Assembly (NCBI GenBank): GCA_003138485.1
Contig: PLGF01000173.1
Span: 31,281 to 95,280 of the forward strand
DNA length: 64,000 bases
DNA from: Verrucomicrobiales bacterium
Lineage (GTDB): Bacteria > Verrucomicrobiota > Verrucomicrobiia > Limisphaerales > Palsa-1400
Reading direction: 5' to 3'
Below, piece by piece: positions 41,568 to 64,000 of the stretch (its first letter is position 1; each line of letters begins with the position of its first letter). The notes beneath the pieces were generated by a model that was not told the origin of the DNA, searched no databases, and saw only the letters and a list, made by a program, of their open reading frames with translations. The translations under genes were made by a program, and so were the position numbers.

Positions 41568-41822
41568 ATGGAAAGTTTGATCGAAGAACTCAAAGCCAAG
41601 ATCATTGCCGGGTTCAACCTCGAAGGCGTCACGGCCGCGGACATCAATCCTGACGCGCCGATTTTTGGCATGGGTCTGGAGCTGGATTCCATTGACGCCC
41701 TCGAACTGGTCGCCATTTTGGAGCAGGACTACGGCATCGTCATCCTCGAACGCTCCGTCGCGGACAAAGCGTTCGCCTCCCTCCGCGCTCTTGCCGAATT
41801 CGTCGCCGCCAACCGCGTCTGA
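41568..41822 (+). CDS. acyl carrier protein
   Basis: 84 aa; phosphopantetheine attachment motif GLELDSIDALEL. Confidence 0.8.
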   Translation: MESLIEELKAKIIAGFNLEGVTAADINPDAPIFGMGLELDSIDALELVAILEQDYGIVILERSVADKAFASLRALAEFVAANRV

Positions 41823-44215
41823 TGTCCCCGCGGAATCCAGTCATCACCGGCGCCGGCATCGTATGCGCCGCCGGCCGTGGCGTGGCGCCGGTCTGGGAAT
41901 CGATCCGCTCCAACCGCTCCGGCCTTGGCCCGCTCACCTTGTTTTCCTCGCCCCGCTACGCGAACCACCTCGTCGGCCAGGTGCGCGACAATGTGGACGC
42001 GCTCGCCGGCAACGTGCGCGGCTCCCGCTCCGACAAACTTTCCTGGATTGCCGCCCGTGAGGCTCTGGCCGCCGCCGGTCTCGACTCCGCCCCGGCCAAT
42101 ACCGATCCGCTTCGCGTTGGCGTGATGCTCGGCGCCACGGTCGGCGGCATGTTGGGAACGGAAAAGTTCCTCGCCGCCCTCCTCCGTGAAAATAAACATC
42201 GTTTCGGCCCGCTGCGTTTTCACGAATGCGCCTCCGCCGCGGACTTGTGCGCCGGTAAAATCGGCGCCCTCGGCCCGGTTGCAACCCTTTCCACCGCCTG
42301 TTCCGCCGGCGCGATGGCCATTCTCGCCGCCGCCGAACTCATTGAACAAGGCGAAGCCGATCTCATGCTTGCCGGCGCGGGTGATTCACTCTCCCAGTTT
42401 ACCCTCAACGGCTTCGGCTCGCTTCTCCTGCTCGACCCCAACGGCTGTCGTCCCTTTGATGCGCGGCGCGCCGGCATCAGCCTGGGCGAAGGCGCGGCCA
42501 TGCTCGTCATTGAAGCCCGGGAAACCGCCCTGGCGCGCGGCGCGAGAATTCTCGCGCGCCTCACCGGCTGGGGCGCGAGTTGCGACGCCTTCCACGCCAC
42601 CGCGCCGCGGCCCGACGGCTCCGGCGCGCTCGCCGCGATGGAAAGCGCTCTCCAACGCGCCCGGCTTCGGCCCGGTGAAATTGATTTTGTCAGCGCCCAC
42701 GGCACCGCCACGCCTGACAACGACGCCATGGAAACGCGGGCGTTGAAACAGCTTTTCGGCGGCTGTCCGCCGCCCGTGGCCTCGGTAAAACGGTTCTTCG
42801 GCCACACGCTTGCCGCGAGTGGCGCCATCAAAGCCGTCCTGGCCGTTCAATCGCTCCTCGAACAGGCTGTGCCCGGCACGCCCGGCTTCGAGGTTGCCGA
42901 TCCCGCTCTTGGCCTGGATCCGGTGAGGGTGTTTCGAGCGCAGCCCCTCTCGCGCATCTTGAGCAACTCGTTCGGCTTCGGCGGCAATAACGTCGCCCTC
43001 GTGATTGAACGCGCCGATTCCGACCAGAGCGCGCCAGCGCCCCTAGCGCCGCAACCGGAACGGACGCGCTCCAAAGGATTCGCCATCGTCGGCGTTGGCG
43101 CGGTCAGCGCCGCCGGCGGCTCGCCCGGGGAAATCGCGGCGGCCTTTCGCAACGGCGGCCCGGCGGTTTCGCCGTTTCCAGTGTCTGTCAGCTCGCCCGC
43201 GGCGCAGGCGAGGGTTTACGCCTGCGGCGACTTTGGCGCGGATCAATTCATTGGACCAGGCAGACGCCGCAAGTTGAGCCGGCTCCAACAAATGGCGCTC
43301 GTCGCCGCGCGAAAGAGCTTCGCTTCCGTCCCCGCTCCCGTTGCGCCGGAGAAAATCTGCGTCGCCATCGGCACCGGCCTTGGCTCCGTCAACGATACGG
43401 CCGCGTTCGTGGAAAACATGATTTTGAAGGACGAACGCGCGCCGCGCCCCGCGCTCTTCACCAGTTCGGTCCATAACTCGCTGGCTTCGCAGATTGCCAT
43501 TGAACTGAATTGTTCGGGCTTGAACTCAACGCCCATCCAGCGCGAGATATCTTTTGAGACGGCTCTCTGGCAGGCCGCCACCGAACTGGCGTCGGGCCGC
43601 GCGGATTTCGCGCTCGCCGGAGCGGCGGACGAATTGAGCCGGCATCAACTGGCCGCCGGCATCCGCTGGGGCTGGTGGCACGAGGCGTCGCCGGAAATCC
43701 GGCCCTTTGCCGGCGCTCTGAAAAACCGCCAGCGCCCCCTTCCCGGCGAAGGCGGCGCGGTGGTCACGCTCACCCGCGAGGACAATCCCATTCCGCCCCT
43801 CGCGTATGTTTCGGCCATCCGCATTGGCCGTTCCGAACAGCCGAACGCCGCGGTCGAGGCGCGCTGGATTGTCCAGACCCTCGAACGCGACGGCATCTCA
43901 CCCGGCAGCGTGGATTTGCTTCTGACCGGCGCAAATGGTTTGACGGGGCCCGATAATTTTTATCGCGCCGTCGCGGAGGAATTCTCGCGGCTGGCCGGAC
44001 GGAGCATACCGTGCGGCGCCTACAAACGCGCGTGCGGCGAACACCATTCCGCATCGGCCTTCGGCTTTCTTACTGCTGTCGGTTTGGCGCGCGGCGGAAT
44101 CGCGCCGGAACTTTGCGCGATGGACAAGACAACCTTGCCCGGCGGTTGCCGGACCGTGGTGCTCTTGACTTTCACGCCGTCGGGAACGAAAGGAATGTGT
44201 TGCGTCCGCGCCTGA
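41822..44215 (+). CDS. fused beta-ketoacyl-ACP synthase (KS, active-site Cys in TACSAG) and chain-length-factor-like second KS domain
   Basis: 797 aa. The first domain has the Cys-His-His architecture (STACSAG; SAHGTATPDND; FGHTLAASG). The second ~380-aa domain has the KS fold but lacks the Cys. The start codon overlaps the ACP stop (ATGA). Confidence 0.75.
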   Translation: MSPRNPVITGAGIVCAAGRGVAPVWESIRSNRSGLGPLTLFSSPRYANHLVGQVRDNVDALAGNVRGSRSDKLSWIAAREALAAAGLDSAPANTDPLRVGVMLGATVGGMLGTEKFLAALLRENKHRFGPLRFHECASAADLCAGKIGALGPVATLSTACSAGAMAILAAAELIEQGEADLMLAGAGDSLSQFTLNGFGSLLLLDPNGCRPFDARRAGISLGEGAAMLVIEARETALARGARILARLTGWGASCDAFHATAPRPDGSGALAAMESALQRARLRPGEIDFVSAHGTATPDNDAMETRALKQLFGGCPPPVASVKRFFGHTLAASGAIKAVLAVQSLLEQAVPGTPGFEVADPALGLDPVRVFRAQPLSRILSNSFGFGGNNVALVIERADSDQSAPAPLAPQPERTRSKGFAIVGVGAVSAAGGSPGEIAAAFRNGGPAVSPFPVSVSSPAAQARVYACGDFGADQFIGPGRRRKLSRLQQMALVAARKSFASVPAPVAPEKICVAIGTGLGSVNDTAAFVENMILKDERAPRPALFTSSVHNSLASQIAIELNCSGLNSTPIQREISFETALWQAATELASGRADFALAGAADELSRHQLAAGIRWGWWHEASPEIRPFAGALKNRQRPLPGEGGAVVTLTREDNPIPPLAYVSAIRIGRSEQPNAAVEARWIVQTLERDGISPGSVDLLLTGANGLTGPDNFYRAVAEEFSRLAGRSIPCGAYKRACGEHHSASAFGFLTAVGLARGGIAPELCAMDKTTLPGGCRTVVLLTFTPSGTKGMCCVRA

Positions 44216-44226
44216 CCAGATACCAG

Positions 44227-44982
44227 ATGATTGTCGTCGCCACGCTCTGCGCGGCGGCGGTGATTTGTATTTCCCTTCGCGGTGCGGAGCGGATTTGGTG
44301 CCTGGCGGCGCTTTGCTCGCTGTCCGGTTTGTGCGTCGGTCTGGGCGTGTCGTTTCCGCGATGGCAGATGTTCGGGGAGAGTATCTGCGCCGCGGCGGCA
44401 AAACGGAAGATCGTCGCGCTGACCTTCGACGACGGACCGGACGCGCGGAACACGCCCGAATTGCTGGCGCTTCTGGCAGGGCGGAAAATTCGCGCCACGT
44501 TCTTTTGCGTGGGAATGCGCGTCGCGCAACAGCCTGAACTTGTCAAACGCATGGCTGCGGAAGGCCACGCCATCGAAAACCACTCCTTCCTCCACAGTCC
44601 TTTCACGAACATTTTCTCCGTCCGGCGCCTCCGGGGCGATTTGTCGCGCGCCCAGGCCGAAATCACCCGCGCCGCCGGGCGCGCGCCGGAGTTTTTCCGT
44701 CCGCCGGTGGGGTTGACCAATCCCCGGGTTTTCCGCGTAACGGGCGAGCTGGGTTTGAAAGTGGCCGGCTACACGGCGCGTGGATTGGACCGGCGAGGTG
44801 ACGCGCCGGAGGAGATCGCCGGGCGGTTGCTGCGCGAACTCCAGCCCGGGGCGATTTTTTTGCTGCACGACGGCGGCGTGCCGTGCAAACGGCTGCTGGC
44901 CGTGGTGACGTTGCTGTTGGACAAACTGGAGAGCGAAGGCTATCAATGCGCGCGGCTGGATGAATTGATCGCAGAACAATGA
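44227..44982 (+). CDS. membrane-anchored polysaccharide deacetylase (NodB domain)
   Basis: Two N-terminal TM segments, then ALTFDDGPD, HAIENHSFLH and FFRPPVG motifs. Confidence 0.7.
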   Translation: MIVVATLCAAAVICISLRGAERIWCLAALCSLSGLCVGLGVSFPRWQMFGESICAAAAKRKIVALTFDDGPDARNTPELLALLAGRKIRATFFCVGMRVAQQPELVKRMAAEGHAIENHSFLHSPFTNIFSVRRLRGDLSRAQAEITRAAGRAPEFFRPPVGLTNPRVFRVTGELGLKVAGYTARGLDRRGDAPEEIAGRLLRELQPGAIFLLHDGGVPCKRLLAVVTLLLDKLESEGYQCARLDELIAEQ

Positions 44983-45668
44983 GAATCCCCGACCGCAAAA
45001 TCATGCTGTGTTCATTGCTGCTGGCGATTTTCCCGCCCCGCGCCGGCGCCCAGACCAACCCGCCCGCGTCGCTGGAGAATATCAGCGCCGCGATGAGCCG
45101 GGCGCGAACGCTGTTCATGCGCTTCGTCCAGGAACGCCATTTGTCACTTTTCAACGAGCCGTTGCGCTCGGAGGGTTTCCTTTGCTTTCAAAAACCGGGC
45201 CGCATCCGCTGGGAGACCACCGTCCCCTACAAATCCATTTTGGTTTCCGACGGCTTCGGCACGGCGCAGTTCGAGTGGATGGACGGGAAATGGACGAAGC
45301 TGGATTCGGGCCTGGGCGACGCGCTGCAAAATGTCATGTCGCAGATCGCCGGCGTGATGGACGGGCGCTACGCCAATGACCGGCGGAGCTACGCCGCCAC
45401 GGTGACGAACATCGCCGGCGACCTGGTCGTCACGCTCGTTCCCCAAAACGAAACCGTGCGCACCATGATGGCGGCCATCGAAGTGCATCTGGCGGCCGAT
45501 TTGAAGGAAACCCGGCGCGTCGTGCTGCGCGAAAATGGCGGCGATTACACCGACATCCGCTTCAGCGAACAGTCCGTCAATTTTGAACCGCCTGCGGGTA
45601 CTTTTGACCGCGGCGCGCCCGTGGACATCGGGAAAATCCGTTCGGCGGCAGCCAACGCCAAACCGTGA
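44979..45668 (+). CDS. LolA-like outer-membrane lipoprotein carrier protein (cluster-associated)
   Basis: Signal peptide and LolA-fold sequence features (FVQER...SEGFLCFQKPGRIRWETTVPYKSILVSDG), in the position typical of the LolA-like gene of aryl-polyene-type clusters. Confidence 0.55.
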   Translation: MRIPDRKIMLCSLLLAIFPPRAGAQTNPPASLENISAAMSRARTLFMRFVQERHLSLFNEPLRSEGFLCFQKPGRIRWETTVPYKSILVSDGFGTAQFEWMDGKWTKLDSGLGDALQNVMSQIAGVMDGRYANDRRSYAATVTNIAGDLVVTLVPQNETVRTMMAAIEVHLAADLKETRRVVLRENGGDYTDIRFSEQSVNFEPPAGTFDRGAPVDIGKIRSAAANAKP

Positions 45669-45672
45669 GATC

Positions 45673-46383
45673 ATGACCGCGGGGCCAGGCAAAACGATAT
45701 TGTTGACCGCGCTGTATGTCGCGCTCAACGGCGGCTGCGCGGCGCGGGGTCCCATTGCCGCGCCCGCGGTTTTGCCCGATGACGGCGGCCGCCAGGCCGC
45801 ATTTGCCCGCGCCGGACGGACGATCGGGAATCTTTTCCCGGCGCAATACCGCTCAACCCAGCGCGCCATCGTGACGGCGGGCGGCAAGCAGTTCGCCTGT
45901 GACGGTTTGCTGAGCGTCTCGCCAGCCGAAGGCCACCACCTGGCCATAGTCAGCAGTTTTGGCGTGGTGACGGATTTGCGCGTGAAGGCGGATGGCGCCT
46001 GCGAACTGCTCAAGGTCACGCCGCTGTTCCGCGAAGACTGGAGCCGCCGGTACGTTGCGCGCGATTTGCGCCGGCTGTTCATTGCGCCGCCGAATTTGCG
46101 GCCCGCCGGCCGGCTCGCCAACGACAGCATTGTTCTGGAGACCGCGCCGGATTCCGACGGTGTGACGGCGCAATACATTTTTTCCGCCGACGGCGTCCGC
46201 TGGCTGGCGTTGGATTTGATTCGGAACGGGACAGCCCATTACCGCGCGACGCCGAAAAACTTCCGCAAATTCCCCGGAACGTCCGCCGAAATCCCCGGCG
46301 GGTTTGAGGTCAGCGCGGAGGCCTATCGCCTGGATCTGCGAATCACGGAACTGGCCGCGCCCGGAACGGAGGCGCAGCCGTGA
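45673..46383 (+). CDS. lipoprotein of unknown function (possibly DUF3261-like)
   Basis: Lipobox LNGGC after a signal peptide. No recognisable catalytic motifs. Confidence 0.45.
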   Translation: MTAGPGKTILLTALYVALNGGCAARGPIAAPAVLPDDGGRQAAFARAGRTIGNLFPAQYRSTQRAIVTAGGKQFACDGLLSVSPAEGHHLAIVSSFGVVTDLRVKADGACELLKVTPLFREDWSRRYVARDLRRLFIAPPNLRPAGRLANDSIVLETAPDSDGVTAQYIFSADGVRWLALDLIRNGTAHYRATPKNFRKFPGTSAEIPGGFEVSAEAYRLDLRITELAAPGTEAQP

Positions 46384-48059
46384 GCCGCCCGCGCAAATGG
46401 ATTCGGCGGTTGCTCTGGATCGCGGGCGGCGGGGTGATCGCGCTGGTGGTTTTGTGGGGCGTGATGCTCGCGCTGATGTATCAATGGGTGGCGCAGCCGC
46501 CGCCGCTGGCGCGGCCCCCGGCCATCGTTTCGCTCGCGCCCGAAGCCCGCGGCGACCGGGTCTATCTCGGCCAAAACTGGTTTGGCAGGCGCGATAACCT
46601 GCCGGTGCTTTACCTCGCCGGCGGGCCTTTTGAGATGGGTTATGCCAACGGAGTGTTGACACAGAAACTCATTCATCGCCAGGAGGATTCCGTGCTCGCC
46701 CTGCTCAATCGCGCCGCTCCCTGGAAGGGGCTGCAATTCGCGCTGAAGTTCTTTGTGACGTTCAAGAACCGGCATATCGCGGCGAACATCACGCCGGATT
46801 TGCAAATGGAAATGCTGGGCATCGCCAGCGGCTGTCCCGACGCCCATCCCGATATGGGCCCGTGTTACAACCGCGTTTTGAATTATCACGCCGCCCAGGA
46901 CATCTCCTACATGTTGATGAACAGCCCGCTCCTGCGGCGCGGCTGCACGGCCTTCGGCGCGTGGGGCGGCGCCACGATGGGAAGCCATTTGCTGTGCGGA
47001 CGCGATTTTGACTGGGAAGCCGACCCGGTGTTTGACGAGAATAGAGTTTTGATCATTTGCGAGCCGAGCAACGGCATCCCCTTCATTTCGCTGGCGTGGG
47101 CGGGCATGGCCGGCTGCGTTTCCGGCATGAACCGCGAAGGCGTTTCCATCGTCGTCAACGGAGCCCCCTCGCATCTGCCTGCCGACGGCGCGACGCCCAC
47201 GTGCCTGGTGGCGCGCGAGGTGTTGGAACACGCCCGCAACCTGGCTGAAGCGACCGCGATCATCCGCAAACGCCGGGTGTTCGTCTCCGCGATGTTTCTC
47301 ATCGGCAGCCGCGCGGACGGGAAATTCATCGTGGTCGAGAAGACGCCGGAAAAAACGGCCGTGCGCGAGCCGGAGAGAAGCGCGGACTGGCTTGTCTGCG
47401 CCAATCATTATCTGACGGCGGAATTGAAAGACGACCCGATCAACGAGACCTACAAACGCGCCGACACTTCGTTGCCGCGCTTTGAACGCATGACGGAGCT
47501 TCTGGGCGCTGAAACCAATCGTCTTGACGCGTCGGGATGCGCGGCGATTCTCCGCGACCGGCGCCTGCCCGGCGGCGGGTTTGCGGGCAATGGCCACCGC
47601 GCCTCGCTGAATCCCCTCATCGCAACGCATTCGGTGGTGATGGATTTGACGGCGGGAGTTTTCTGGGCCGCCACCCCGCCGCACCAGCTTGGAAAATTTA
47701 TCGCGTTCAACCTGGGCGCGCCGGAGGAATTATTGCCCGAACAAGCCTTGCCTGCTGATCCGATGCTCGGCGACGGCGAATACAAAAGCTATCTCGCCGC
47801 CAAAAGCGATCTGGGCGAGGGCTGGCGCGCTTTGAAAAAGGCCGATCTCGCCGCGGCGCTGGCGTTCGCGACGGCGGCGGAGAAGAACAATCCCGGTTTT
47901 TATCAGAACTCGTGGCTGTGCGCCGAGGTCCTCCTCCGCCAGGGCAAACAAGCCGAAGCGACCGATGCGTGTCAGCGCGCGCTGGCCGGCAAGCCGGCGC
48001 TGGCCGGAGAACGGCGGCGGATAGAACAACTCCTGGCCCGGGCGAAAGCGCTCCCATGA
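46380..48059 (+). CDS. peptidase C45 family acyl-CoA:6-APA acyltransferase-like protein with an N-terminal TM and a C-terminal TPR-like tail
   Basis: N-terminal TM, then the autoproteolysis/nucleophile region RRGCTAFGAWGG typical of C45 (Ntn-hydrolase) acyltransferases. Confidence 0.55.
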   Translation: MSRPRKWIRRLLWIAGGGVIALVVLWGVMLALMYQWVAQPPPLARPPAIVSLAPEARGDRVYLGQNWFGRRDNLPVLYLAGGPFEMGYANGVLTQKLIHRQEDSVLALLNRAAPWKGLQFALKFFVTFKNRHIAANITPDLQMEMLGIASGCPDAHPDMGPCYNRVLNYHAAQDISYMLMNSPLLRRGCTAFGAWGGATMGSHLLCGRDFDWEADPVFDENRVLIICEPSNGIPFISLAWAGMAGCVSGMNREGVSIVVNGAPSHLPADGATPTCLVAREVLEHARNLAEATAIIRKRRVFVSAMFLIGSRADGKFIVVEKTPEKTAVREPERSADWLVCANHYLTAELKDDPINETYKRADTSLPRFERMTELLGAETNRLDASGCAAILRDRRLPGGGFAGNGHRASLNPLIATHSVVMDLTAGVFWAATPPHQLGKFIAFNLGAPEELLPEQALPADPMLGDGEYKSYLAAKSDLGEGWRALKKADLAAALAFATAAEKNNPGFYQNSWLCAEVLLRQGKQAEATDACQRALAGKPALAGERRRIEQLLARAKALP

Positions 48060-57209: not shown

Positions 57210-57294
57210 CTGGAGATTATGGGGGGCCACCGCCGCAAACGCACGCCTGTTTTCCGGGCGCTTGACGAGCGGCTCAGGTTTGCCATGCTGCGAA

Positions 57295-58581: not shown

Positions 58582-59044
58582 GCCGAACGGGTTTGCCCCG
58601 ATAAGTGATTTCCTTCGACCAATACAGGAACGGACACCCGCGCATGCGGCTGGTCGAGGAGCGCTCAATGATTGCATCCGCTTCGGGCGTCTTGGCGAGC
58701 GCGTTGTAATACGCGCGCTCCGACACTGGATCCACAAAAAAGCAGGGTACCCACGGCCCGTTCGGGCACGCGCAATGATCCTCGAAAAACTTGACTCCGA
58801 GAACCTGCCAATTGGTCCCGTCGATGACGCGCACGATTCCGAGCACGTAAGCGTCCTCGCGCGAAGAGCCTTCCACAGGGTCAAGGACCACCAGGTCCTG
58901 GCGTGGCACCTGGGTTTCGAGATTCAACTGCCCGAACCGGATGACCGGCTTGTAGTTCCCGGTCGCACAGCCCGCCAGCAGCGCGCAGGACACTGCCAAC
59001 CAGCCGCTTCCTTTGAATAACCGTCCAATCGAGATTGTTTTCAT
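58568..59044 (-). CDS. lipoprotein, unknown function
   Basis: Lipobox LLAGCAT after a signal peptide. Confidence 0.5.
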   Translation of the reverse strand: MKTISIGRLFKGSGWLAVSCALLAGCATGNYKPVIRFGQLNLETQVPRQDLVVLDPVEGSSREDAYVLGIVRVIDGTNWQVLGVKFFEDHCACPNGPWVPCFFVDPVSERAYYNALAKTPEADAIIERSSTSRMRGCPFLYWSKEITYRGKPVRLKTQ

Positions 59045-59245
59045 ACCTTCAAATCATAGCATGGAAACTCCGTTCTTGCACCGGCATTCAGAAACGGCCT
59101 GGCGTGGCAGCCAGCGGACAGCGTGAAGTGGCGATTGACATAATGGGACCATTTCGATACTTTCGGTCACGCTTTGCGCGGCCCAGCGGCCGGGATAATA
59201 AATTCGGGAGCCGGGTCGCCAGAAAATGCGAAAATTGAAACGTCC

Positions 59246-59830
59246 ATGAAAATCAAAAGACTTGCCATTCATTCCCTTGCTCTTTGTCTTGCGTTCGCCC
59301 TGCCTCTCGCCGCATGTGCCGGGTCCAAGCTCATCAAAGCTCAGAGGATTGCATCCCCGCCCAGCGGAAAGGCCCTTGTCAATTTCCACAGGCCCACTGC
59401 GTACGGCGGCACGGAGAGATTTCCCATCTTTGACGGCACGGGCAAAATGTTGATTGACCTCCCTGGCAAATCCGAGTTTCAACTCGTCTGCGATCCGGGC
59501 GAACAGTTGTTCATCGCCTGGGCCGATCATGTCACCGTCGTCAAAGCGGATATGGCGGCGGACAAGACTTACGATATCATGGTGGACGTCGGCATGGGTT
59601 GGATGGAGGCGAACATCCGGTTGATGCCTCTGTCCAAGAGCGACCCAAGGAGAGCCAAATTGGATGAGTTTGAAAAGCGCGAAACGCATGTGTGGGCCAT
59701 GGAGCGAAACAAACACGTCATTGATTACGAAGCCAAGAACCAGGATAGGGTTCAACAAATCAAGAAGGACTTTATCGCCGGCGAAAAGTCCGACCGGATT
59801 GGATCTTTGAGCAAGAGCGACTGCCGGTAA
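59246..59830 (+). CDS. lipoprotein, unknown function
   Basis: Lipobox LAACAG after the signal peptide MKIKRLAIHSLALCLAFALP. Confidence 0.5.
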   Translation: MKIKRLAIHSLALCLAFALPLAACAGSKLIKAQRIASPPSGKALVNFHRPTAYGGTERFPIFDGTGKMLIDLPGKSEFQLVCDPGEQLFIAWADHVTVVKADMAADKTYDIMVDVGMGWMEANIRLMPLSKSDPRRAKLDEFEKRETHVWAMERNKHVIDYEAKNQDRVQQIKKDFIAGEKSDRIGSLSKSDCR

Positions 59831-59836
59831 GCTCGA

Positions 59837-62800
59837 TCATTTCTTCGAAGCAACCAGCAGCAGATTTGATCCAAGGCCGGAGCCGCTTCGGACTTCAACT
59901 TTCCCAAAACCCGCCTCGCGCAACAACGCGAGGTGGGTTTCTTCGCCTTCAAAATGCAGGCCGTGGCGGGTTTTATTCTGGCCGAACCGCACGGCCCATC
60001 TTTCGGCGCGCGCCACCGCGCGGTGGCCGGAATCCTCCCTTGCCATTGCGTCCCGGATGACCACGCAGCCGCCCGGACGCAACGCGGCAAATACTTTGCG
60101 CAGCACCTCCGCCTTGAGGTCGCGCGGGAAATAATGCAGTACGTCGCACAGCAGCGCGCAGTCGCACGCGGGATACTCCGGCCATTCCAGAATGTCGCGC
60201 CGCTCAAATGTCACCCGTGGATTCGACCGCGCCGTGACCCGCGCCACGCGGATTTTTTCCACGTCAAAATCCACTCCATGCGCGCGGCGTTCCGGCGTGA
60301 AGAGCGTCAGCCAATGCGCCACAAGGCCGTAGCCGCAGCCCACATCCAGGATTTCTCCGCCGGCCGGAACGGCCTTTTCCACGGCGCCGAACAGCGGGTC
60401 GGTCTTCATTTTCCAATAGACAAACTGCGAGACATACGGCCCTTGAAAACGGTAGAGACGGCTGACAGCGCGGCGCGTTTGGGCCGGCGTGGGATTGGAA
60501 ATCATCGGACGGCGCGAATTCATTTCCACCAGCCAGCGCATGGACAGCGGCAGAAGCGATAACGTCCCCAGCAAACTGAAACTAATGCCCAGCAACGCCG
60601 TCAGCCCGACCGAAAACAAGGCCGGATGACGCGCCAGCACCAGCACGCCTGTGCCGAGCAGCGCCGTCAGCGCGCACATCGTCACCGCGGCGCCCGTGGC
60701 CGCCGAGCGCTCCGGGCGGCCGCGCAACGGTTCCAGCTCGCCCAACACCAAAAACAGGCTGTAATCGCCGCCCACGCCGACGACGAAGATGACGAACACA
60801 AAATTGGCGGCGTCAATGGGCAGGCCGCAAAGTCCCAGCGAACCGAGCGTCCAAAATACGCCCGCGGCCATTGGCAGCAGAGTGACCAACACCAGCTCAA
60901 TCCGCCCCAGCAGCAGAAAAAGCAGAAACGCATTCAGCGCCGCCACGAGCAATCCAAACACCGGCAGCGCCCGCCGCGCGACTTGCGCGATCTCGTCGGA
61001 CAAAGCCGCCTTGTTGAGCAGCAAAGCGTCCGGCACGGCGAGCTTCACCGCCGCGCGAAGCCGGCGGAATTCTTCCGTGCCGCCTGCCTTCACGAGCGTT
61101 GTCACGTAAATCCTGCCATCGCGCTCGCTCCAGAAATCGGCGGCCAGGCGGTTCAACCCGGAATTGGTTTCCGTCGGCGCCGCGGTCTCCGGCTGGGAAA
61201 TGTTCTCCAAAAACGGCGTGAAGGTTTCGGGCCGGAATCCAAGCCTGGCGGCGGCGGCGAGAAGCGAGTCATGCAGTTGGGACTGCCGCGCGGCCGTCCA
61301 GAAATTCCGCCAGTCGCGCCTGTTTGCCGCCTGTGTCCGCGCCGAGGGCATCAGCGGCGCAATGGAGGAAAAGGATTCCAGGACGTTTTGTCCGCGCATG
61401 GTTTCCAGCGCCGCGAACACTTTCTCATTTTTCGTCAGAACTTCTTCGCGCGTCGTTCCGCCGACCACGATGGTTGTCAGTGAAAGCGCGTTCCCCCAGC
61501 TTTCGCGGATGGTCTTTTCGTCCTCTCGCGTGCCGGGCGTCACGCCGTTGAGCCGCGCCAGATCGCCGTCGAATTTCAGGCGGGCCGCTCCCGCGGCGCA
61601 GACGAGCGTGAAGAGAACCAGCGCCGCCAGGACGAAGCCTCCGTGCGCGGTCCGCCAGTCGAGCCATCGCTGGAGCAGGCCTGTCAAAGGCAGCGGACGG
61701 GCATCGGCGATGGCTTGCACCGGAATAAACAGCGGCAGAATCAGCAGGGCGAACAGCGCCGCCATCCCGACGCCGACCACGCCAAACAAGCCGAGTTGCC
61801 GGTGGCCGGAAACCGGCGAGAGGAACATGACGAAGAAGGCCGCCATGGTCGTGAGCGCGCCGAAGGAAAGCGCCGGAACCAGCCCGGCGACGACGCCCGC
61901 GAGTTCTTCGCGGCTGGCCGGCGGAGAATCGTCAAGCAGATAGACGATATAGACCCCGTAATCCACAGTCGCTCCGATCAACATGCTGCCGCAGCCAAGC
62001 GCAACGGAGGAAACCAGGTCGCCGGTCAGAAAGAGAACGGCGACCGCCCCCAGCGCGCCGAAGGCCACCGGAACCAAGGCCATCAACGCCAGCCAGCGGC
62101 GGCGGCACGCCAGAAGGATCAGCGCCGCGATGGCCACGAGGGCGATGACGCTCGTCCGCGCGGTATCGGCGCGGATCATCCCGGCGTTGTCAAGCGCGGC
62201 GCGATGCGCGCCGGTGACGGAAATCCTCACCGCGCCGTCCGGAAATTCTTTCTCGACCGAGCGGGCGGCATTCAGCACCGATTGGATGAGCGCGGCGCTT
62301 TTGCCGGTTTCCGACGAGCGGAATTGCGGCGCGGCGTTGATGAGCGCGTGGCAGCCGTCCGCGCTGGTGATCCGCCCGCCAACGATGCGCGCGCCGCCGG
62401 CGCCCGCCTGCAAGCCGCGAAGCCGGGCCGACACGGCATCACTGATGCCGGCGGGGTCCGTCCGCGCGACGTCTTTGAACATCATCCCCTGCGGCTGCAT
62501 CATGGATTTTTTCAGCCACGCGAGCCGTGCTTCCAAACTGGCTTCCGTCAGGCGCGGTTCCAGTTGGCGCAGATCACTTGAGTTGAGCAGCGCCGGCAAT
62601 TGCGATTGCAACTGGCGGTAGGCCGCGGCCATTTCGGCGTCGTCGATTTCGCCGCGCAAATCGGCGAGCTGTGGAATTTCGCGAAGTTCGGAGGTCATTC
62701 GCGCGGCGGCCGCGGCAAGTTCCTGGGCATTGGTTGTGACGGTCGCCACATCAATGTAAATGCGCTCAGCCTGCCGGATTTCCTTGAGCGCCGCGATCTG

Positions 62801-62968
62801 TTCGGCGATGGCGGGCGCGGACATCGGCAAAACGTCCGTGAAGTCTTCATTCAGCTTGAGCCTGCGCCCCATGAACAATGAAGCGCAGACAAACGCGGCA
62901 AAAAGCAGCAGAACGATCTTCCGGTGACGCGCCAGACACAGATGCAGTTGGACAAAGCGGCCGGTCAT
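59837..62968 (-). CDS. fusion: MMPL/RND-superfamily lipid exporter (12 TM) with a C-terminal class I SAM-dependent methyltransferase domain
   Basis: The N-terminal ~800 aa have two 6-TM bundles with large periplasmic loops, typical of the MMPL exporters of aryl-polyene clusters. The C-terminal ~200 aa have the SAM motif ILDVGCGYG and the MTase fold. Confidence 0.7.
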   Translation of the reverse strand: MTGRFVQLHLCLARHRKIVLLLFAAFVCASLFMGRRLKLNEDFTDVLPMSAPAIAEQIAALKEIRQAERIYIDVATVTTNAQELAAAAARMTSELREIPQLADLRGEIDDAEMAAAYRQLQSQLPALLNSSDLRQLEPRLTEASLEARLAWLKKSMMQPQGMMFKDVARTDPAGISDAVSARLRGLQAGAGGARIVGGRITSADGCHALINAAPQFRSSETGKSAALIQSVLNAARSVEKEFPDGAVRISVTGAHRAALDNAGMIRADTARTSVIALVAIAALILLACRRRWLALMALVPVAFGALGAVAVLFLTGDLVSSVALGCGSMLIGATVDYGVYIVYLLDDSPPASREELAGVVAGLVPALSFGALTTMAAFFVMFLSPVSGHRQLGLFGVVGVGMAALFALLILPLFIPVQAIADARPLPLTGLLQRWLDWRTAHGGFVLAALVLFTLVCAAGAARLKFDGDLARLNGVTPGTREDEKTIRESWGNALSLTTIVVGGTTREEVLTKNEKVFAALETMRGQNVLESFSSIAPLMPSARTQAANRRDWRNFWTAARQSQLHDSLLAAAARLGFRPETFTPFLENISQPETAAPTETNSGLNRLAADFWSERDGRIYVTTLVKAGGTEEFRRLRAAVKLAVPDALLLNKAALSDEIAQVARRALPVFGLLVAALNAFLLFLLLGRIELVLVTLLPMAAGVFWTLGSLGLCGLPIDAANFVFVIFVVGVGGDYSLFLVLGELEPLRGRPERSAATGAAVTMCALTALLGTGVLVLARHPALFSVGLTALLGISFSLLGTLSLLPLSMRWLVEMNSRRPMISNPTPAQTRRAVSRLYRFQGPYVSQFVYWKMKTDPLFGAVEKAVPAGGEILDVGCGYGLVAHWLTLFTPERRAHGVDFDVEKIRVARVTARSNPRVTFERRDILEWPEYPACDCALLCDVLHYFPRDLKAEVLRKVFAALRPGGCVVIRDAMAREDSGHRAVARAERWAVRFGQNKTRHGLHFEGEETHLALLREAGFGKVEVRSGSGLGSNLLLVASKK

Positions 62969-64000
62969 GCAGGCGGATTATTTTTGGGGGCGAACAAGCG
63001 GCCGACAAGCCAGGTGACAATCGTGCCGGCGATTCCAACCAGAATTCCCAGAGCGATGCTGCCCAAAAACCATTCGGTGAAGCGGGTCGGAACGTCCTTC
63101 AGCAGCGTTGTGGCGTTGAGCGGGAGCAGGCCGCCCGTGCGCAGGAAATGGCCCAGCAGCAGCCCGCCGGCCATGATGAACGGCGCGGCGAGCGGAAAGG
63201 AAATGTTGCTCGCGGTCACGGCGATGGCTTTGTTCAACCGGAGTTTATGCGCGAGCGCGGCGGCGGTGATCATTTGAAAACCCCAGATGGGCGCGATGCC
63301 GCAGAAAAGCCCCAGCCCGACCGCGAAGGCCACTTTCGCCGGCGTGTCCGCGTGCTCGGTAAACAGCAGGCGCATTACCGTTTCCACTCGCCTGCCGTGC
63401 GGCAGACGATGCAAGTGGCCGGAGGCGGAGATTTTCCGCAGCGGCGCCGGGAGGCAAAACCTCTGAATGGAAAGCCGCGAGTGCAGGAACGAAATCGCAG
63501 CCATGTCGCTCCACGGATTGAAGTGCGAAAGGCGGGAAGTCGCCGCCTGGTAATCGGCGGACACCGGATGCGCCGCCAGCGGGATGCCGGCCCACGCGGC
63601 CTTGACCATGATCTCCAATTCGTAGGCGTAGCGCCCCGATTTAAGGCGGAGCCTGTTGACGGTTTTGAGCGGATAGCCGCGGTAGCCGCATTGCGTGTCG
63701 GCGAGGTTCACGCCAGTCTCAACCTTGAACCAGAATGTGGAAAGGCTGTTGGTCACGCGGCGGCCGCGCGGCGCTTTTTCCTTCACCAGGTCGCGCACGC
63801 CGATGATCAACGCCTCCGGCTCCATCCGGCTGGCGGAGGCGAGCGCCGCCAGTTCCCGCGTCGCGTGCTGGCCGTCGGCATCAATGGTTATGGCGTGTGT
63901 GAAGCCGCGTTTTTCCGCCTCGGCAAACCCGGCGCGCAGCGCGGCCCCCTTGCCCTGGTTGCGCGGCAGCGCGATGACGCTGATGCCCTTTTCCGCGGCG
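62965..64000 (-). CDS. glycosyltransferase family 2 (polyprenol-phosphate sugar transferase-like) with a C-terminal membrane domain; 5' end lies beyond the window
   Basis: The reverse-strand translation continues to the window edge (…ISVIALPRNQGKGAALRAGF…ITIDADGQH…QCGYRGYPL). DxD-like DADGQH and QCGYR motifs are present, followed by 3-4 TM helices. Confidence 0.7.
   Translation of the reverse strand, partial: AAEKGISVIALPRNQGKGAALRAGFAEAEKRGFTHAITIDADGQHATRELAALASASRMEPEALIIGVRDLVKEKAPRGRRVTNSLSTFWFKVETGVNLADTQCGYRGYPLKTVNRLRLKSGRYAYELEIMVKAAWAGIPLAAHPVSADYQAATSRLSHFNPWSDMAAISFLHSRLSIQRFCLPAPLRKISASGHLHRLPHGRRVETVMRLLFTEHADTPAKVAFAVGLGLFCGIAPIWGFQMITAAALAHKLRLNKAIAVTASNISFPLAAPFIMAGGLLLGHFLRTGGLLPLNATTLLKDVPTRFTEWFLGSIALGILVGIAGTIVTWLVGRLFAPKNNPPA

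What the first reader, a model, noticed from the sequence alone, without database searches (positions are those of the whole stretch)
41568..64000. Large aryl-polyene/flexirubin-type lipid biosynthetic gene cluster with a halogenase and several atypical additions
The cluster contains two ACPs, a KS plus CLF-like domain (fused), FabD, FabG, a FabZ-like DH, a hotdog thioesterase and a PlsC-family acyltransferase. It also has two LolA-like carriers, an MMPL exporter, GT2, a membrane polysaccharide deacetylase and unknown-function lipoproteins (one possibly DUF3261-like). This is the hallmark inventory of aryl-polyene (APE) / flexirubin / xanthomonadin clusters that build an outer-membrane-anchored polyene lipid.

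A tryptophan-halogenase-family enzyme (WxWxIP motif) suggests a halogenated product, as in xanthomonadins. Genes not typical of canonical APE clusters are a C45 Ntn acyltransferase, a GNAT-aminotransferase fusion, a GcvT-like protein and a beta-lactamase-fold hydrolase. The starter-unit genes (ammonia lyase, AMP-ligase) are not in the window and may lie beyond 64000.
Basis: partly seen in the sequence, partly recalled or inferred. Interest (0 to 1): 0.65.

Follow-up and report, generated by a model that had tools for sequence, protein, structure and literature searches.

The report
Verrucomicrobial flexirubin-type aryl-polyene lipid cluster
This is a real gene cluster, from an uncultured soil or peat Verrucomicrobium, of the known family that builds yellow aryl-polyene pigments anchored in the outer membrane; it is unusual because a second gene set like that of the streptococcal pigment granadaene, including an N-acyltransferase/PLP fusion enzyme, is attached to it.

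Summary
Nearly every call was confirmed by profile searches and by independent metagenome gene calls.

The aryl-polyene/flexirubin reading holds:
- ACP-KS/CLF-deacetylase-LolA-hypothetical has the same gene order as flxM-flxR of Chitinophaga pinensis.
- Nine proteins have homologues in the E. coli ape cluster.
- The gene just past the window end is an FlxY-type (4-coumarate-CoA ligase) enzyme.
- Homologous clusters in three related contigs, two from Verrucomicrobial assemblies, carry an aromatic ammonia-lyase; the one examined is TAL-like.

- The C45 acyltransferase, halogenase, methyltransferase and deacetylase are canonical flexirubin genes, not atypical ones.
- No DUF3261 relative was found.
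- The MMPL exporter is fused to a SAM methyltransferase.
- The halogenase/LolA/beta-lactamase-fold block was found only in this organism's own contigs.

The truly atypical part is a conserved six-gene operon: ACP, GcvT-like, thioesterase, FabG, FabD and a LuxI/FeeM-type N-acyltransferase fused to a HisC/CobD-type PLP enzyme. Together with the ~800-aa fused KS-CLF and FabZ, it matches the family inventory of the granadaene (cyl) operon.

The fusion enzyme occurs in more than 530 species genomes, mostly Verrucomicrobiota. The product and the head group are inferred, not shown. Verdict: a new variant of a known kind, of moderate interest.

The parts
41568..41822 (+). ACP1, ApeE/PRK09184-type carrier protein (probable starter/chain carrier)
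   Evidence: PP-binding 2.7e-08. PRK09184 67.9 bits against a cutoff of 70. 46% identity to E. coli ApeE.
41822..44215 (+). Fused ketosynthase (residues 1-400, active Cys) plus CLF-like non-condensing half (Glu at the Cys position)
   Evidence: Pfam ketoacyl-synt/_C. Active-site column alignment. Full-length colinear alignment to the Bacillus cyl fused KS, 288 bits. All of the 120 best-scoring homologues listed are fused proteins of 718-1226 aa, mostly about 750-870.
44227..44982 (+). Membrane-anchored polysaccharide deacetylase (FlxP position)
   Evidence: Polysacc_deac_1 1e-31. Gene call. Hydrophobic N-terminus. Same position as flxP.
44979..45668 (+). LolA-like carrier 1 (FlxQ position)
   Evidence: LolA 6.7e-14. 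LolA2_flexi 85.5 bits, below the cutoff of 125.
45673..46383 (+). Conserved lipoprotein of unknown family (FlxR position)
   Evidence: No Pfam or NCBIfam hit. Signal peptide with invariant Gly-Cys. 41-69% identical in relatives. No similarity to ApeN/DUF3261.
46410..48059 (+). C45 Ntn-type acyl-CoA:amine acyltransferase with a TPR tail (FlxW equivalent)
   Evidence: AAT 2.2e-18. C45_proenzyme 183 bits, above the cutoff of 85. flxW is annotated as peptidase C45.
48056..48868 (+). PlsC-family lysolipid O-acyltransferase (ApeD-like)
   Evidence: Acyltransferase 2.4e-20. 31% identity to ApeD.
48865..49347 (+). FabZ/ApeI/ApeP-like dehydratase
   Evidence: FabA 2.2e-23 and a weak ApeI-like hit. Precomputed ApeP-like/ApeI-like hits. 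37% identity to cyl FabZ.
49330..51096 (-). LuxI/FeeM-type N-acyltransferase (residues 1-~215) fused to a HisC/CobD-type PLP enzyme (~250-588)
   Evidence: Pfam. TIGR01140 187 bits and hisC 166 bits, both below cutoff. PDB CobD and HisC matches. AF2 model pLDDT 76, with top folds LasI, MesI, BjaI, RpaI and FeeM. More than 533 species genomes encode a relative.
51106..52035 (-). FabD malonyl-CoA:ACP transacylase
   Evidence: Acyl_transf_1 1.1e-39. fabD 241 bits. 34% identity to the cyl FabD.
52041..52784 (-). FabG ketoreductase (only dedicated KR seen in this cluster family)
   Evidence: adh_short_C2 2.3e-66. FabG subfamily PRK12826.1-2 254.8 bits, above the cutoff of 222. FlxB 232 bits, below the cutoff of 340. 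Related flx-like clusters L088-L090 lack a KR.
52796..53242 (-). 4HBT_2 hotdog thioesterase (ApeK/cyl TE-like)
   Evidence: 4HBT_2 1.5e-11. About 29% identity to both ApeK and the B. cereus cyl TE.
53256..54362 (-). GcvT-family folate-binding protein (role unknown; a GcvT-family gene is also present in cyl operons, as CylF)
   Evidence: GCV_T 1.6e-31 plus GCV_T_C. All GcvT models fall below cutoff. 86-90 bits to Bacillus CylF-like proteins against 76 bits to the best solved GcvT. 599 homologues; the 120 best listed are >=59% identical.
54359..54655 (-). ACP2 (elongation carrier; closest to the cyl AcpC-type)
   Evidence: PP-binding 2.5e-07. 42% identity to the B. cereus cyl ACP against 36% to ApeE.
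54752..56566 (+). Flavin-dependent halogenase, CmlS/PltA-like (lineage-specific insert)
   Evidence: Trp_halogenase 3.7e-11. CmlS 3i3l 2.6e-16. Motifs GGGLAG, WVWLIP and FLDPFYSPG. Strong match only in this organism's own contigs L001/L002; a weak 26%-identity hit in L009.
56538..57422 (-). LolA-like carrier 2 (start uncertain: 294 aa or 223 aa)
   Evidence: LolA 8.8e-11. 28% identity to ApeL. Two alternative gene calls.
57376..58581 (+). Beta-lactamase-fold serine hydrolase (AmpH/class C-like); probable lipid esterase or transacylase, lineage-specific
   Evidence: Beta-lactamase 6.4e-51. All NCBIfam models fall far below cutoff. Found only in this organism's own contigs L001/L002 among the loci fetched.
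58568..59044 (-). Lipoprotein of unknown family (lipobox LAGC)
   Evidence: No family hit. Lipobox. 42% identical in L027.
59246..59830 (+). Lipoprotein of unknown family (lipobox LAAC), conserved next to MMPL-MT
   Evidence: No family hit. Lipobox. 54-56% identical in L008 and L027.
59837..62968 (-). MMPL/RND exporter fused to a C-terminal SAM methyltransferase (FlxU/ApeM-like)
   Evidence: MMPL 9.1e-18 plus Methyltransf_25 2.5e-15 at residues 868-1025. 26% identity to ApeM. flxU is described as an exporter with a methyltransferase domain.
62965..64000 (-). GT2+DUF2062 glycosyltransferase (ApeJ/FlxT-like), truncated by the window end. The full gene would end at about 64143 and the FlxY-type ligase would follow at about 64145-65428.
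   Evidence: Glycos_transf_2 plus DUF2062. 35% identity to ApeJ. Full gene and ligase seen on L001/L002. FlxY model 454 bits against a cutoff of 520.

Best explanation
The region is most of a flexirubin/aryl-polyene-type type II PKS/FAS-like cluster from an uncultured Verrucomicrobiota bacterium. Its closest genomes are soil and peat 'Verrucomicrobiae' MAGs.

Likely mechanism (every step is inferred from homology; none is shown experimentally):
1. An aryl-acrylic acid, probably 4-coumarate made by a TAL encoded elsewhere, is activated by the FlxY-type ligase just outside the window and placed on the ApeE-like ACP1.
2. The fused KS-CLF extends it with malonyl units loaded by FabD onto ACP2. FabG and the FabZ/ApeI-like dehydratase process each round. 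No enoyl reductase is present, so a conjugated polyene results.
3. The flavin halogenase and the methyltransferase domain on the exporter decorate the ring.
4. The chain is released or transferred by the hotdog thioesterase and the C45 acyltransferase onto a lipid anchor. The anchor is built by the PlsC acyltransferase, the GT2-DUF2062 glycosyltransferase, the deacetylase and the LuxI/FeeM-PLP fusion. I propose that the fusion makes an N-acylated amino-alcohol(-phosphate).
5. The MMPL pump, two LolA-like carriers and several lipoproteins move the lipid to the outer membrane.

The six-gene operon ACP2-GcvT-TE-FabG-FabD-GNAT/PLP supplies the only dedicated KR and MAT seen in this cluster family. 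It gives the pathway a granadaene-like (cyl-like) elongation and amide-forming set.
For: - Domain content.
- Synteny with flxM-flxR, and presence of FlxK, FlxT, FlxU, FlxW and FlxY equivalents: (PMC3992019 supplement).
- FlxY is a characterised 4-coumarate-CoA ligase, and the ligase beyond the window scores 454 bits on the FlxY model.
- Homology to E. coli ApeE, O, Q, J, D, K, L and M, and weakly to ApeI.
- Homologous clusters in relatives place Lyase_aromatic-LpxL-TE-KS-CLF directly upstream of ACP-KS/CLF-deacetylase-LolA-x (then C45-PlsC in L088/L089).
- The L088 lyase has the MIO motif, a His-Leu switch and Gln in place of the HAL Glu.
- No ER, and no KR in those clusters, while FabG and FabD sit in the six-gene operon.
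- The two convergent operons are conserved together in L003-L007, L010 and L027, and the six-gene operon lies next to MMPL-MT/GT2/ligase in L008.
- The cyl-like inventory and the best matches of KS-CLF, FabZ, FabG and ACP2 are to Bacillus cyl-like operons.
- The GNAT domain has a LuxI/FeeM fold.
- The PLP domain is equally close to CobD and HisC, which both act on phosphorylated amino-alcohol or keto-alcohol substrates.
- Known APE lipids carry the polyene on an aminosugar-phosphoglycerol lipid, so a GT/acyltransferase anchor is precedented.
Against: - No ammonia-lyase or other aryl-starter gene lies in the window or within about 9 kb past its end.
- The KS scores below the curated cutoffs of the ApeO (310 bits against 407) and ApeR families, and slightly higher on FabF.
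- I had no flexirubin KS sequences to place it.
- In one relative (JAEUHG010000131.1) the six-gene operon lies about 20 kb from the flx-like cluster. Most GNAT-PLP genes (about 66 of 80 loci) stand alone or beside Aas-like genes. Its link to the polyene is therefore not obligatory.
- The GcvT-like protein is not clearly closer to CylF than to true GcvT.
- The GNAT domain shows no detectable homology to the cyl GNAT.
- Nothing about the product is measured.
Confidence: 0.75

Rival explanations
1. Two independent pathways lie side by side. One is a flexirubin-type pigment cluster. The other is a separate, phylum-wide Verrucomicrobial aminolipid pathway, in which the LuxI/FeeM-PLP fusion with its own ACP/FabD/FabG/TE/GcvT makes an N-acyl amino-alcohol membrane lipid that has nothing to do with the polyene.
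For: - The GNAT-PLP fusion is in more than 533 species genomes at 55-87% identity, usually without flx-like neighbours.
- In 13 loci it sits beside an MFS-PlsC-acyl-ACP-synthetase (LplT/Aas-like) fusion.
- In JAEUHG010000131.1 the two gene sets are about 20 kb apart, and the stretch read next to the flx-like cluster holds glycosyltransferase and two-component regulator genes.
Against: - The six-gene operon abuts flx-like genes in two different arrangements: convergent with FabZ...ACP1 in 7 genomes, and next to MMPL-MT/GT2/ligase in L008.
- The flx-like clusters of relatives have no KR or MAT of their own.
- The operon itself has no KS or DH.
Confidence: 0.2
2. The product is a non-aryl, granadaene-like polyene amide (an amino-compound-capped polyene lipid). 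The FlxY-type ligase would activate something other than an aryl acid.
For: - The full cyl-type family inventory is present: TE, FabD, FabG, ACP, FabZ, GNAT, GcvT-family and an ~800-aa fused KS.
- The KS-CLF halves match the cyl fused KS better than ApeO, ApeR or ApeC.
- No ammonia-lyase is present in the sequence available for this genome.
Against: - The FlxY match is 454 bits.
- ACP1 is ApeE-like.
- A TAL-like lyase and an ApeO-like KS plus a short CLF lie in the orthologous clusters of relatives.
- A halogenase and a methyltransferase typical of ring tailoring are present.
- The GNAT is not homologous to the cyl GNAT.
Confidence: 0.1
3. An ordinary envelope locus (lipid A modification, capsule or lipoprotein sorting) that only resembles a secondary-metabolite cluster.
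For: LolA, PlsC, GT2, the deacetylase and MMPL are also envelope-biogenesis families. The housekeeping LpxC-FabZ gene lies 15 kb upstream.
Against: - A dedicated KS-CLF, two ACPs, a C45 acyltransferase, a halogenase and an FlxY-type ligase are present.
- Synteny with flx.
- A TAL-like lyase in relatives.
Confidence: 0.03

Closest known systems
Flexirubin biosynthetic cluster (Chitinophaga pinensis flxA-flxY; Flavobacterium johnsoniae Fjoh_1073-1110)
   Same: - The order ACP-KS-KS-like-polysaccharide deacetylase-LolA-hypothetical is shared (flxM-flxR).
- There are equivalents of the C45 acyltransferase (FlxW), halogenase (FlxK), GT2 (FlxT), exporter with methyltransferase domain (FlxU), hotdog TE and DH.
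- The PaaK/F390-type ligase matches the FlxY model.
- TAL, LpxL-type acyltransferase and TE lie upstream in Verrucomicrobial relatives, as FlxA, FlxE and FlxH do.
- One relative (L090) even has a DarB-like KAS III.
   Different: - KS and CLF are fused into one 797-aa protein.
- No DarA/DarB (dialkylresorcinol) genes lie in this locus.
- FabD, a GcvT-like protein and a LuxI/FeeM-PLP fusion are added.
- PlsC is a separate gene.
- The cluster is split, with an R-M island beyond the window.
- The host phylum is Verrucomicrobiota.
- The FlxY, FlxB and LolA2 model scores are all below the equivalog cutoffs.
E. coli CFT073 / Xenorhabdus doucetiae ape cluster (aryl polyene lipids, APELs)
   Same: Homologues of ApeE (46%), ApeO (35%), ApeQ (36%), ApeJ (34%), ApeD (31%), ApeK (29%), ApeL (28%) and ApeM (26%), and weakly ApeI. 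There is no enoyl reductase. The logic of lipid anchoring plus MMPL/LolA export is shared.
   Different: - The ligase belongs to a different family (FlxY/PaaK-type rather than ApeH).
- No ApeN/DUF3261, ApeG, ApeB-type MT or separate ApeC was detected.
- The KS is below the PRK09185 and PRK09116 cutoffs.
- Extra genes here: deacetylase, C45, halogenase, FabD, GcvT-like and GNAT-PLP.
cyl operon (granadaene, ornithine rhamno-polyene of Group B Streptococcus; cyl-like operons on Bacillus cereus pBCM301 and Priestia megaterium pBM500)
   Same: - The family inventory is shared: 4HBT_2 TE, FabD, FabG, ACP, FabZ, a GNAT-type N-acyltransferase, a GcvT-family protein, an ~800-aa fused KS with a Cys-less second half, a glycosyltransferase and no ER.
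- KS-CLF, FabZ, FabG and ACP2 score higher against these operons than against the ape cluster.
   Different: - The cyl operons are in Gram-positive hosts and export through an ABC transporter.
- They have no LolA, MMPL, C45, deacetylase, halogenase or aryl-acid ligase.
- The cyl GNAT (about 1000 aa, no PLP domain) is not detectably homologous.
- Orthology of the GcvT-like proteins is unresolved.
Xanthomonadin / arcuflavin clusters (Xanthomonas, Azoarcus sp. BH72)
   Same: Halogenase, methyltransferase, polysaccharide deacetylase, exporter, LolA, acyltransferase, dehydratase, AMP-ligase, ACP and glycosyltransferase are all listed for arcA-arcW.
   Different: The starter there comes from a XanB2-type chorismatase (3-/4-hydroxybenzoate), whereas relatives of this cluster carry a TAL-like lyase. 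Those clusters have no C45, GcvT-like or GNAT-PLP genes listed.
LuxI-type AHL synthases / FeeM-type N-acyl amino acid synthases, and the two-domain N-acyl serinol synthase of Gemella (the last from my own recollection of Cohen et al. 2017, not retrievable here)
   Same: The N-terminal domain of the fusion has the LuxI/FeeM fold (top Foldseek hits LasI, MesI, BjaI, RpaI and FeeM). A single nas gene from Gemella is enough to make N-acyl serinols in E. coli (PMC13012048).
   Different: No sequence comparison with the Gemella enzyme was possible. The PLP domain here cannot be assigned as a transaminase or a decarboxylase. The acceptor amine is unknown.

Membership tests
Aryl-polyene superfamily (APE / flexirubin / xanthomonadin clusters) | Dedicated type II KS plus non-condensing CLF partner, KR and DH but no enoyl reductase | tested here: met
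   KS with Cys and a CLF half with Glu at that position. FabG and a FabZ/ApeI-like DH are present. No ER family appears in any gene call.
Aryl-polyene superfamily (APE / flexirubin / xanthomonadin clusters) | Aryl-acid activating ligase in the cluster | tested here: met
   A 427-aa ligase lies directly after GT2, about 145 nt past the window end. It scores 454 bits on the FlxY model, E 3e-136, below the equivalog cutoff of 520. Substrate was not tested.
Aryl-polyene superfamily (APE / flexirubin / xanthomonadin clusters) | Source of the aryl starter (TAL/PAL, XanB2 chorismatase or UbiC-type) | tested here: inconclusive
   No MIO-motif protein or lyase homologue is in the window, L001, L002, L084 or L087. 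A TAL-like lyase is present inside the orthologous clusters L088, L089 and L090.
Aryl-polyene superfamily (APE / flexirubin / xanthomonadin clusters) | Export/anchoring set: LolA-like, MMPL/RND exporter, GT2, lysolipid acyltransferase | tested here: met
   with homology to ApeL, ApeM, ApeJ and ApeD.
E. coli-type ape cluster | KS belongs to the ApeO (PRK09185) or ApeR (PRK09116) families | tested here: not met
   The window KS scores 310 bits on PRK09185 (cutoff 407) and 201 bits on PRK09116 (cutoff 470). E. coli ApeO and ApeR score 556 and 779.
E. coli-type ape cluster | DUF3261 lipoprotein (ApeN) | tested here: not met
   No Pfam hit for any small ORF even at E<=1. hhalign of the unk236 family against ApeN aligns only the lipobox, probability 0.9%.
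E. coli-type ape cluster | ApeE-type starter ACP (PRK09184) | tested here: inconclusive
   67.9 bits against a cutoff of 70. 46% identity over the full length to ApeE.
Flexirubin cluster | Gene order flxM-N-O-P-Q-R plus FlxW (C45), FlxT, FlxU and FlxY equivalents | tested here: met
   Comparison of the window gene order with Table S4 of PMC3992019.
Flexirubin cluster | Dialkylresorcinol genes darA/darB (ester partner of the polyene) | tested here: not met
   No KAS III/DarB-like or DarA-like match in the window, L001 or L084. A DarB-like gene exists in relative L090.
Flexirubin cluster | Pigment with reversible KOH colour shift; tyrosine-derived aryl octaene | not testable with these tools
   Needs culture or heterologous expression and chemistry.
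cyl / granadaene operon | Core set CylG, AcpC, CylZ, CylH/I, CylE, CylF (PMC6985545) | tested here: inconclusive
   Family-level counterparts of all six are present. The GNAT is not detectably homologous to the cyl GNAT. The GcvT-like protein scores 86-90 bits against CylF-like proteins and 76 bits against true GcvT.
cyl / granadaene operon | CylA/CylB ABC exporter | tested here: not met
   No ABC transporter is in the cluster. An MMPL exporter is present instead.
Flavin-dependent halogenases | GxGxxG, WxWxIP and Fx.Px.Sx.G motifs; catalytic Lys | tested here: met
   GGGLAG, WVWLIP and FLDPFYSPG are read directly from the translation. K80 aligns with the KK of CmlS; that this is the catalytic Lys is my recollection. 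Best solved relatives are CmlS and PltA.

The most novel reading that the evidence does not exclude
In one Verrucomicrobial lineage a granadaene-type polyene synthase has been combined with flexirubin-type initiation, tailoring and outer-membrane export.
- The granadaene-type part comprises the fused KS-CLF, FabZ, FabG, FabD, ACP, TE and a CylF-like GcvT-family protein.
- The LuxI/FeeM-PLP fusion, found in more than 530 species genomes (mostly Verrucomicrobiota), makes its own amino-alcohol(-phosphate) and N-acylates it.
- The final product would then be an amide-linked, halogenated aryl-polyene aminolipid, rather than a resorcinol ester (flexirubin) or a sugar ester (APEL).

If so, the GcvT-family protein shared with cyl operons would have a conserved, still unknown, chemical role in polyene-amide biosynthesis.
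Probability: 0.25. Interest if true: 0.65.

Novelty: new variant of a known kind. Interest (0 to 1): 0.45.

Why it matters
Aryl-polyene clusters are among the most widespread bacterial biosynthetic gene clusters, yet full products are known for very few. I found none characterised from Verrucomicrobiota, a dominant but poorly cultured soil phylum.

This locus shows that Verrucomicrobial versions are flexirubin-like in order and initiation. In this lineage, though, they carry a conserved operon that parallels the granadaene (cyl) pathway, which had been reported only from Gram-positive phyla and Chloroflexi (PMC6985545).

Three things follow:
- It gives a second, independent context in which to ask what the unexplained GcvT-family protein of polyene pathways does.
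- It flags a LuxI/FeeM-PLP fusion conserved in more than 530 species genomes as a candidate synthase for an undescribed class of Verrucomicrobial N-acyl lipids.
- The halogenase predicts a chlorinated or brominated product that would be easy to spot by mass spectrometry.

Tried and rejected
- DUF3261/ApeN-like lipoprotein: rejected. There is no hmmscan hit at E<=1, and hhalign aligns only the lipobox.
- ORFs 54668-55204(-), 55244-56164(-) and 59054-59758(-), and the long forms of LolA2 and the beta-lactamase: rejected as shadow or over-extended ORFs. They have no family hits, overlap better-supported genes and are absent from the JGI calls. The opposite-strand ORF 59246-59830 is the conserved one.
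- Esterase 40261-41532 as part of the cluster: rejected. It is not found next to ACP1 in any relative.
- Homology of the GNAT domain to the cyl GNAT (CylE-like): not detected by tblastn or hhalign.
- A specific CylF/GcvT-like clade: not demonstrable from the scores. B. cereus CylF-like scores 107 bits against T. maritima GcvT and about 86 bits against the window protein.
- Search for an MIO (ASG) motif or a TAL, DarA or DarB homologue in the window and its extensions: none found.
- Identity of PDB 9s5h, the best solved match of both KS halves: no paper found.
- The Cohen et al. 2017 paper on the two-domain N-acyl serinol synthase could not be read, so that analogy rests on memory.
- tblastn of KS-CLF against plasmids gave only distant Streptomyces and other KS genes, which was uninformative.
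- Searches with the GcvT-like and KS-CLF proteins returned only close Verrucomicrobial homologues in the top 120, so they could not show more distant contexts.
- Extension of the contig past L001 by a metagenome scan reached a related contig (L084) that ends after about 4 kb.

Full report
**Observation**

I rebuilt the gene model of 41.5-64 kb from ORFs and third-position GC. I checked it with Pfam and NCBIfam and with independent JGI gene calls on metagenome contigs that encode identical proteins.

There are two convergent operons.

On the + strand:
- ACP1 (41568-41822).
- A 797-aa fused KS/CLF (41822-44215).
- A membrane polysaccharide deacetylase (44227-44982).
- LolA (44979-45668).
- A conserved lipoprotein of unknown family (45673-46383).
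- A C45/AAT acyltransferase with a TPR tail (46410-48059).
- PlsC (48056-48868).
- A FabZ/ApeI-like dehydratase (48865-49347).

On the - strand, read in the direction of transcription:
- An FlxY-type ligase and the start of GT2-DUF2062, both beyond the window end.
- GT2-DUF2062 (62965->64000).
- MMPL fused to a SAM methyltransferase (59837-62968).
- ACP2 (54359-54655).
- GcvT-like (53256-54362).
- A 4HBT_2 thioesterase (52796-53242).
- FabG (52041-52784).
- FabD (51106-52035).
- A GNAT-PLP fusion (49330-51096).

Between MMPL-MT and ACP2 lies a mixed-strand block:
- Two lipobox proteins (59246-59830 on +, 58568-59044 on -).
- A beta-lactamase-fold hydrolase (57376-58581, +).
- A second LolA (56538-57422, -).
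- A 604-aa flavin halogenase (54752-56566, +).

The halogenase has the GxGxxG, WxWxIP and FxxPxxSxG motifs. Its best solved relatives are CmlS and PltA.

- The exporter is fused to a methyltransferase.
- Several starts were over-extended.
- Three overlapping ORFs are shadows.
- No DUF3261-like protein can be detected.

**Source organism and what lies beyond the window**

The nearest genomes are uncultured Verrucomicrobiae and Verrucomicrobiota MAGs from soil and peat. The GNAT-PLP protein is up to 87% identical to theirs. The upstream context fits a chromosome of this phylum: a Ser/Thr kinase-WD40 protein, an LpxC-FabZ fusion and giant surface proteins.

The exact MMPL-MT protein is listed in 100 blocks of the contig index (24 carrying contigs were read). 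On L001 and L002 the sequence past the window end holds, in order:
- The rest of GT2-DUF2062.
- A 427-aa ligase.
- A DUF8321/8322 gene and a BsuBI/PstI-type restriction-modification system.
- An MMPL+LpxL-type acyltransferase fusion.

On a related contig the MMPL+LpxL fusion is preceded by a KS, a KS-like protein and an unknown gene. So the cluster continues past an inserted R-M island.

The ligase scores 454 bits (E 3e-136) on NCBIfam's FlxY model, against an equivalog cutoff of 520. FlxY of Chitinophaga pinensis is a biochemically characterised 4-coumarate-CoA ligase (PMC3992019).

**Class assignment**

Three comparisons support an aryl-polyene/flexirubin-type cluster.

1. Gene order. The C. 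pinensis gene table gives flxM ACP, flxN KS, flxO KS-like, flxP deacetylase, flxQ LolA and flxR hypothetical. This is the same order as the window's + operon, with flxN and flxO fused here. The table also lists flxK halogenase, flxJ methyltransferase, flxT GT2, flxU exporter with methyltransferase and acyltransferase domains, flxW peptidase C45 and flxY ligase. The C45 enzyme, halogenase, methyltransferase and deacetylase are therefore canonical, not atypical. The betaproteobacterial arcuflavin/xanthomonadin clusters list a similar set.

2. Homology to the E. coli CFT073 ape cluster (L083). tblastn finds homologues of ApeE (46%), ApeO (35%), ApeQ (36%), ApeJ (34%), ApeD (31%), ApeK (29%), ApeL (28%) and ApeM (26%), and weakly ApeI.

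3. Clusters of relatives. In more distant relatives, found through the fused KS-CLF, the cluster is contiguous. L088 and L089 carry Lyase_aromatic, an LpxL-type acyltransferase, 4HBT_2 TE, KS, a short CLF, ACP, the fused KS-CLF, deacetylase, LolA, an unknown gene, C45 and PlsC (plus an ApeI-like DH in L089). L090 carries the same upstream part as far as LolA.
   - The L088 lyase has the MIO motif (GASGD), a His-Leu selectivity pair and Gln where HALs have Glu, so it is TAL/PAL-like.
   - The separate KS of L088 scores best on the ApeO model.
   - L090 also has a DarB-like KAS III.

Limits of the assignment:
- The window KS itself is below the curated ApeO and ApeR cutoffs. It scores 310 bits against 407 and 201 against 470, whereas E. 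coli ApeO and ApeR score 556 and 779.
- No ammonia-lyase or Dar gene is in the sequence available for this genome.
- I had no flexirubin protein sequences for a KS tree.

**The atypical part**

ACP2-GcvT-TE-FabG-FabD-GNAT/PLP is a conserved six-gene operon. It is present in 14 of the 82 loci compared (80 fetched through the fusion protein, plus this organism's own L001 and L002), including those two.
- In 7 genomes it is convergent with the FabZ...ACP1 operon, as it is here.
- In L008 it lies directly beside MMPL-MT/GT2/ligase.
- The flx-like clusters of relatives contain no KR or malonyl transferase, so this operon is the only dedicated source of those activities.

A tblastn of the GcvT-like protein against plasmids led to cyl-like (granadaene-type) operons on Bacillus cereus pBCM301 and Priestia megaterium pBM500. 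The B. cereus operon has, in order, TE, FabD, FabG, ACP, FabZ, a GNAT protein, a GT, an aminomethyltransferase-family protein and an 818-aa fused KS. The P. megaterium operon has the same set without the large GNAT and GT genes.

The window therefore has a counterpart for every cyl core family named in PMC6985545. Scores against these operons:
- The fused KS-CLF aligns colinearly over residues 1-762 with the B. cereus fused KS, at 288 bits, against 166 bits for ApeO.
- Both halves score best against the cyl halves, and all the second halves lack the catalytic Cys.
- FabZ (37%), FabG (43%), ACP2 (42%) and FabD (34%) also match.

Two caveats apply:
- The GNAT domains are not detectably homologous.
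- The GcvT-like protein is only marginally closer to CylF-like proteins (86-90 bits) than to true GcvT (76 bits), while B. cereus CylF-like is itself close to GcvT at 107 bits.

So the parallel is one of inventory and architecture, not proven orthology.

**The GNAT-PLP fusion**

Relatives are encoded in at least 533 species genomes. These are overwhelmingly Verrucomicrobiota, with a few Planctomycetota, Acidobacteriota, Omnitrophota and others, at 55-87% identity. Most copies stand alone. In 13 loci the gene adjoins an MFS-PlsC-acyl-ACP-synthetase fusion of the LplT/Aas type.

An AlphaFold model of the N-terminal 240 residues (pLDDT 76) matches AHL synthases (LasI, MesI, BjaI, RpaI, TofI, EsaI) and the N-acyl amino acid synthase FeeM best.

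The C-terminal domain is equidistant from L-threonine-O-3-phosphate decarboxylase (CobD) and histidinol-phosphate aminotransferase. Both act on phosphorylated three- or four-carbon amino or keto alcohols.

I infer that the PLP domain makes an amino-alcohol phosphate and the LuxI/FeeM domain N-acylates it from an acyl-ACP or acyl-CoA. The precedent I recall is the two-domain N-acyl serinol synthase of Gemella. A single nas gene from Gemella is enough to make N-acyl serinols in E. coli (PMC13012048), but I could not read the original paper.

**Proposed mechanism (inferred throughout)**

1. The aryl-acrylate is activated by the FlxY-type ligase and loaded on ACP1.
2. The KS-CLF elongates it with FabD/ACP2-supplied malonate, FabG and the dehydratase. 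With no ER, a polyene results.
3. The ring is halogenated and methylated.
4. The chain is transferred by the TE and C45 enzymes to an anchor assembled by GNAT-PLP, PlsC, GT2-DUF2062 and the deacetylase.
5. The lipid is exported by MMPL, the two LolA-like proteins and the lipoproteins.

The solved APEL structure has the polyene esterified to GalNAc-phosphate-diacylglycerol. It shows that such clusters do build a complex glycolipid anchor.

Strong matches to the halogenase, second LolA and beta-lactamase block occur only in this organism's own contigs. The block coincides with lower G+C, which suggests a recent addition.

**Rivals**

- The strongest alternative is that the six-gene operon, or at least GNAT-PLP, belongs to a separate aminolipid pathway that is merely adjacent. 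On JAEUHG010000131.1 it lies about 20 kb from the flx-like cluster.
- A purely non-aryl, granadaene-like product is less likely, given FlxY, the ApeE-like ACP1 and the TAL in relatives.
- An ordinary envelope locus is effectively excluded.

**Verdict**

It is an uncharacterised Verrucomicrobial variant of the flexirubin/aryl-polyene family. In this lineage a cyl-like module and a fusion enzyme found in more than 530 species genomes are attached to it. That makes it a new variant of a known kind, of moderate interest. The chemistry of the head group and the role of the GcvT-family protein are the open questions.

Noticed in passing
beyond the window end; L001:2636-7338 (window-equivalent about 65.6-70.3 kb): The cluster is interrupted just past the FlxY-type ligase by a DUF8321/DUF8322 gene and a BsuBI/PstI-type restriction enzyme with an Eco57I-type methylase. 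After this island an MMPL+LpxL-type acyltransferase fusion resumes; on related contig L084 it is preceded by a KS and a KS-like gene.
   Followed up: partly
L015, L019, L021, L023, L031, L032, L037-L039, L050, L052, L055, L056: In 13 other genomes the GNAT-PLP gene lies close to (usually directly beside) a large MFS (LplT-like) + PlsC + acyl-ACP synthetase (Aas-like) fusion. This suggests a lysolipid re-acylation partner for its product.
   Followed up: partly
protein P0317: One metagenome gene call of 1226 aa fuses KS-CLF with Polysacc_deac_1 and LolA domains. It is either a true Rosetta-stone fusion or a frameshift or gene-call artefact.
   Followed up: no
L085 (B. cereus pBCM301 40356-61417) and L086 (P. 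megaterium pBM500): Large Bacillus and Priestia plasmids carry complete cyl-like (granadaene-type) operons. In B. cereus the operon is followed by the dTDP-rhamnose genes rfbABCD. The same aminomethyltransferase/DUF6365 pair is annotated on many B. cereus and B. thuringiensis plasmids.
   Followed up: partly
L090:14467-16514 and 17621-22460: A relative's flx-like cluster has MazE/PIN and Fic genes inserted after LolA. It is followed by PlsC, a 238-aa unknown, a DarB-like KAS III, a B12-radical SAM enzyme and ABC-2 transporter genes, which is a more complete flexirubin-plus-resorcinol layout.
   Followed up: no
L004, L009, L013, L030, L070, L077: Several MAG records titled Bifidobacteriaceae, Bifidobacterium sp. 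or Akkermansia muciniphila carry this Verrucomicrobial gene at 58-86% identity, some with the whole cluster. The record titles look taxonomically wrong.
   Followed up: no
window 25566-26924 and 21191-22009: A housekeeping LpxC-FabZ fusion protein and a second, unrelated polysaccharide deacetylase lie 15-20 kb upstream of the cluster.
   Followed up: no
window 36362-40231 (-), 34438-36381 (-), 9391-14121 (+), 15205-16953 (+): A 1289-aa Ser/Thr kinase with WD40 propellers sits next to the cluster. Upstream are a BspA-type leucine-rich-repeat protein and two giant He_PIG/CarboxypepD_reg surface proteins. The esterase 40261-41532 abuts ACP1 but is not conserved there in relatives.
   Followed up: partly
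PDB 9s5h chains B and C: The best solved match of the KS half (chain B, 9e-73) and one of the better matches of the CLF half (chain C, 1.3e-06) are two chains of one recent entry named only '3-oxoacyl-ACP synthase'. This is probably a KS/CLF heterodimer of a related pathway. No paper was found.
   Followed up: partly
window 54001-56000 and 58001-60000: G+C drops to about 0.58, against about 0.64 in the rest of the cluster, over the halogenase and the small lipoprotein genes. This coincides with part of the block (halogenase, LolA2, beta-lactamase fold) not found in the related clusters.
   Followed up: no
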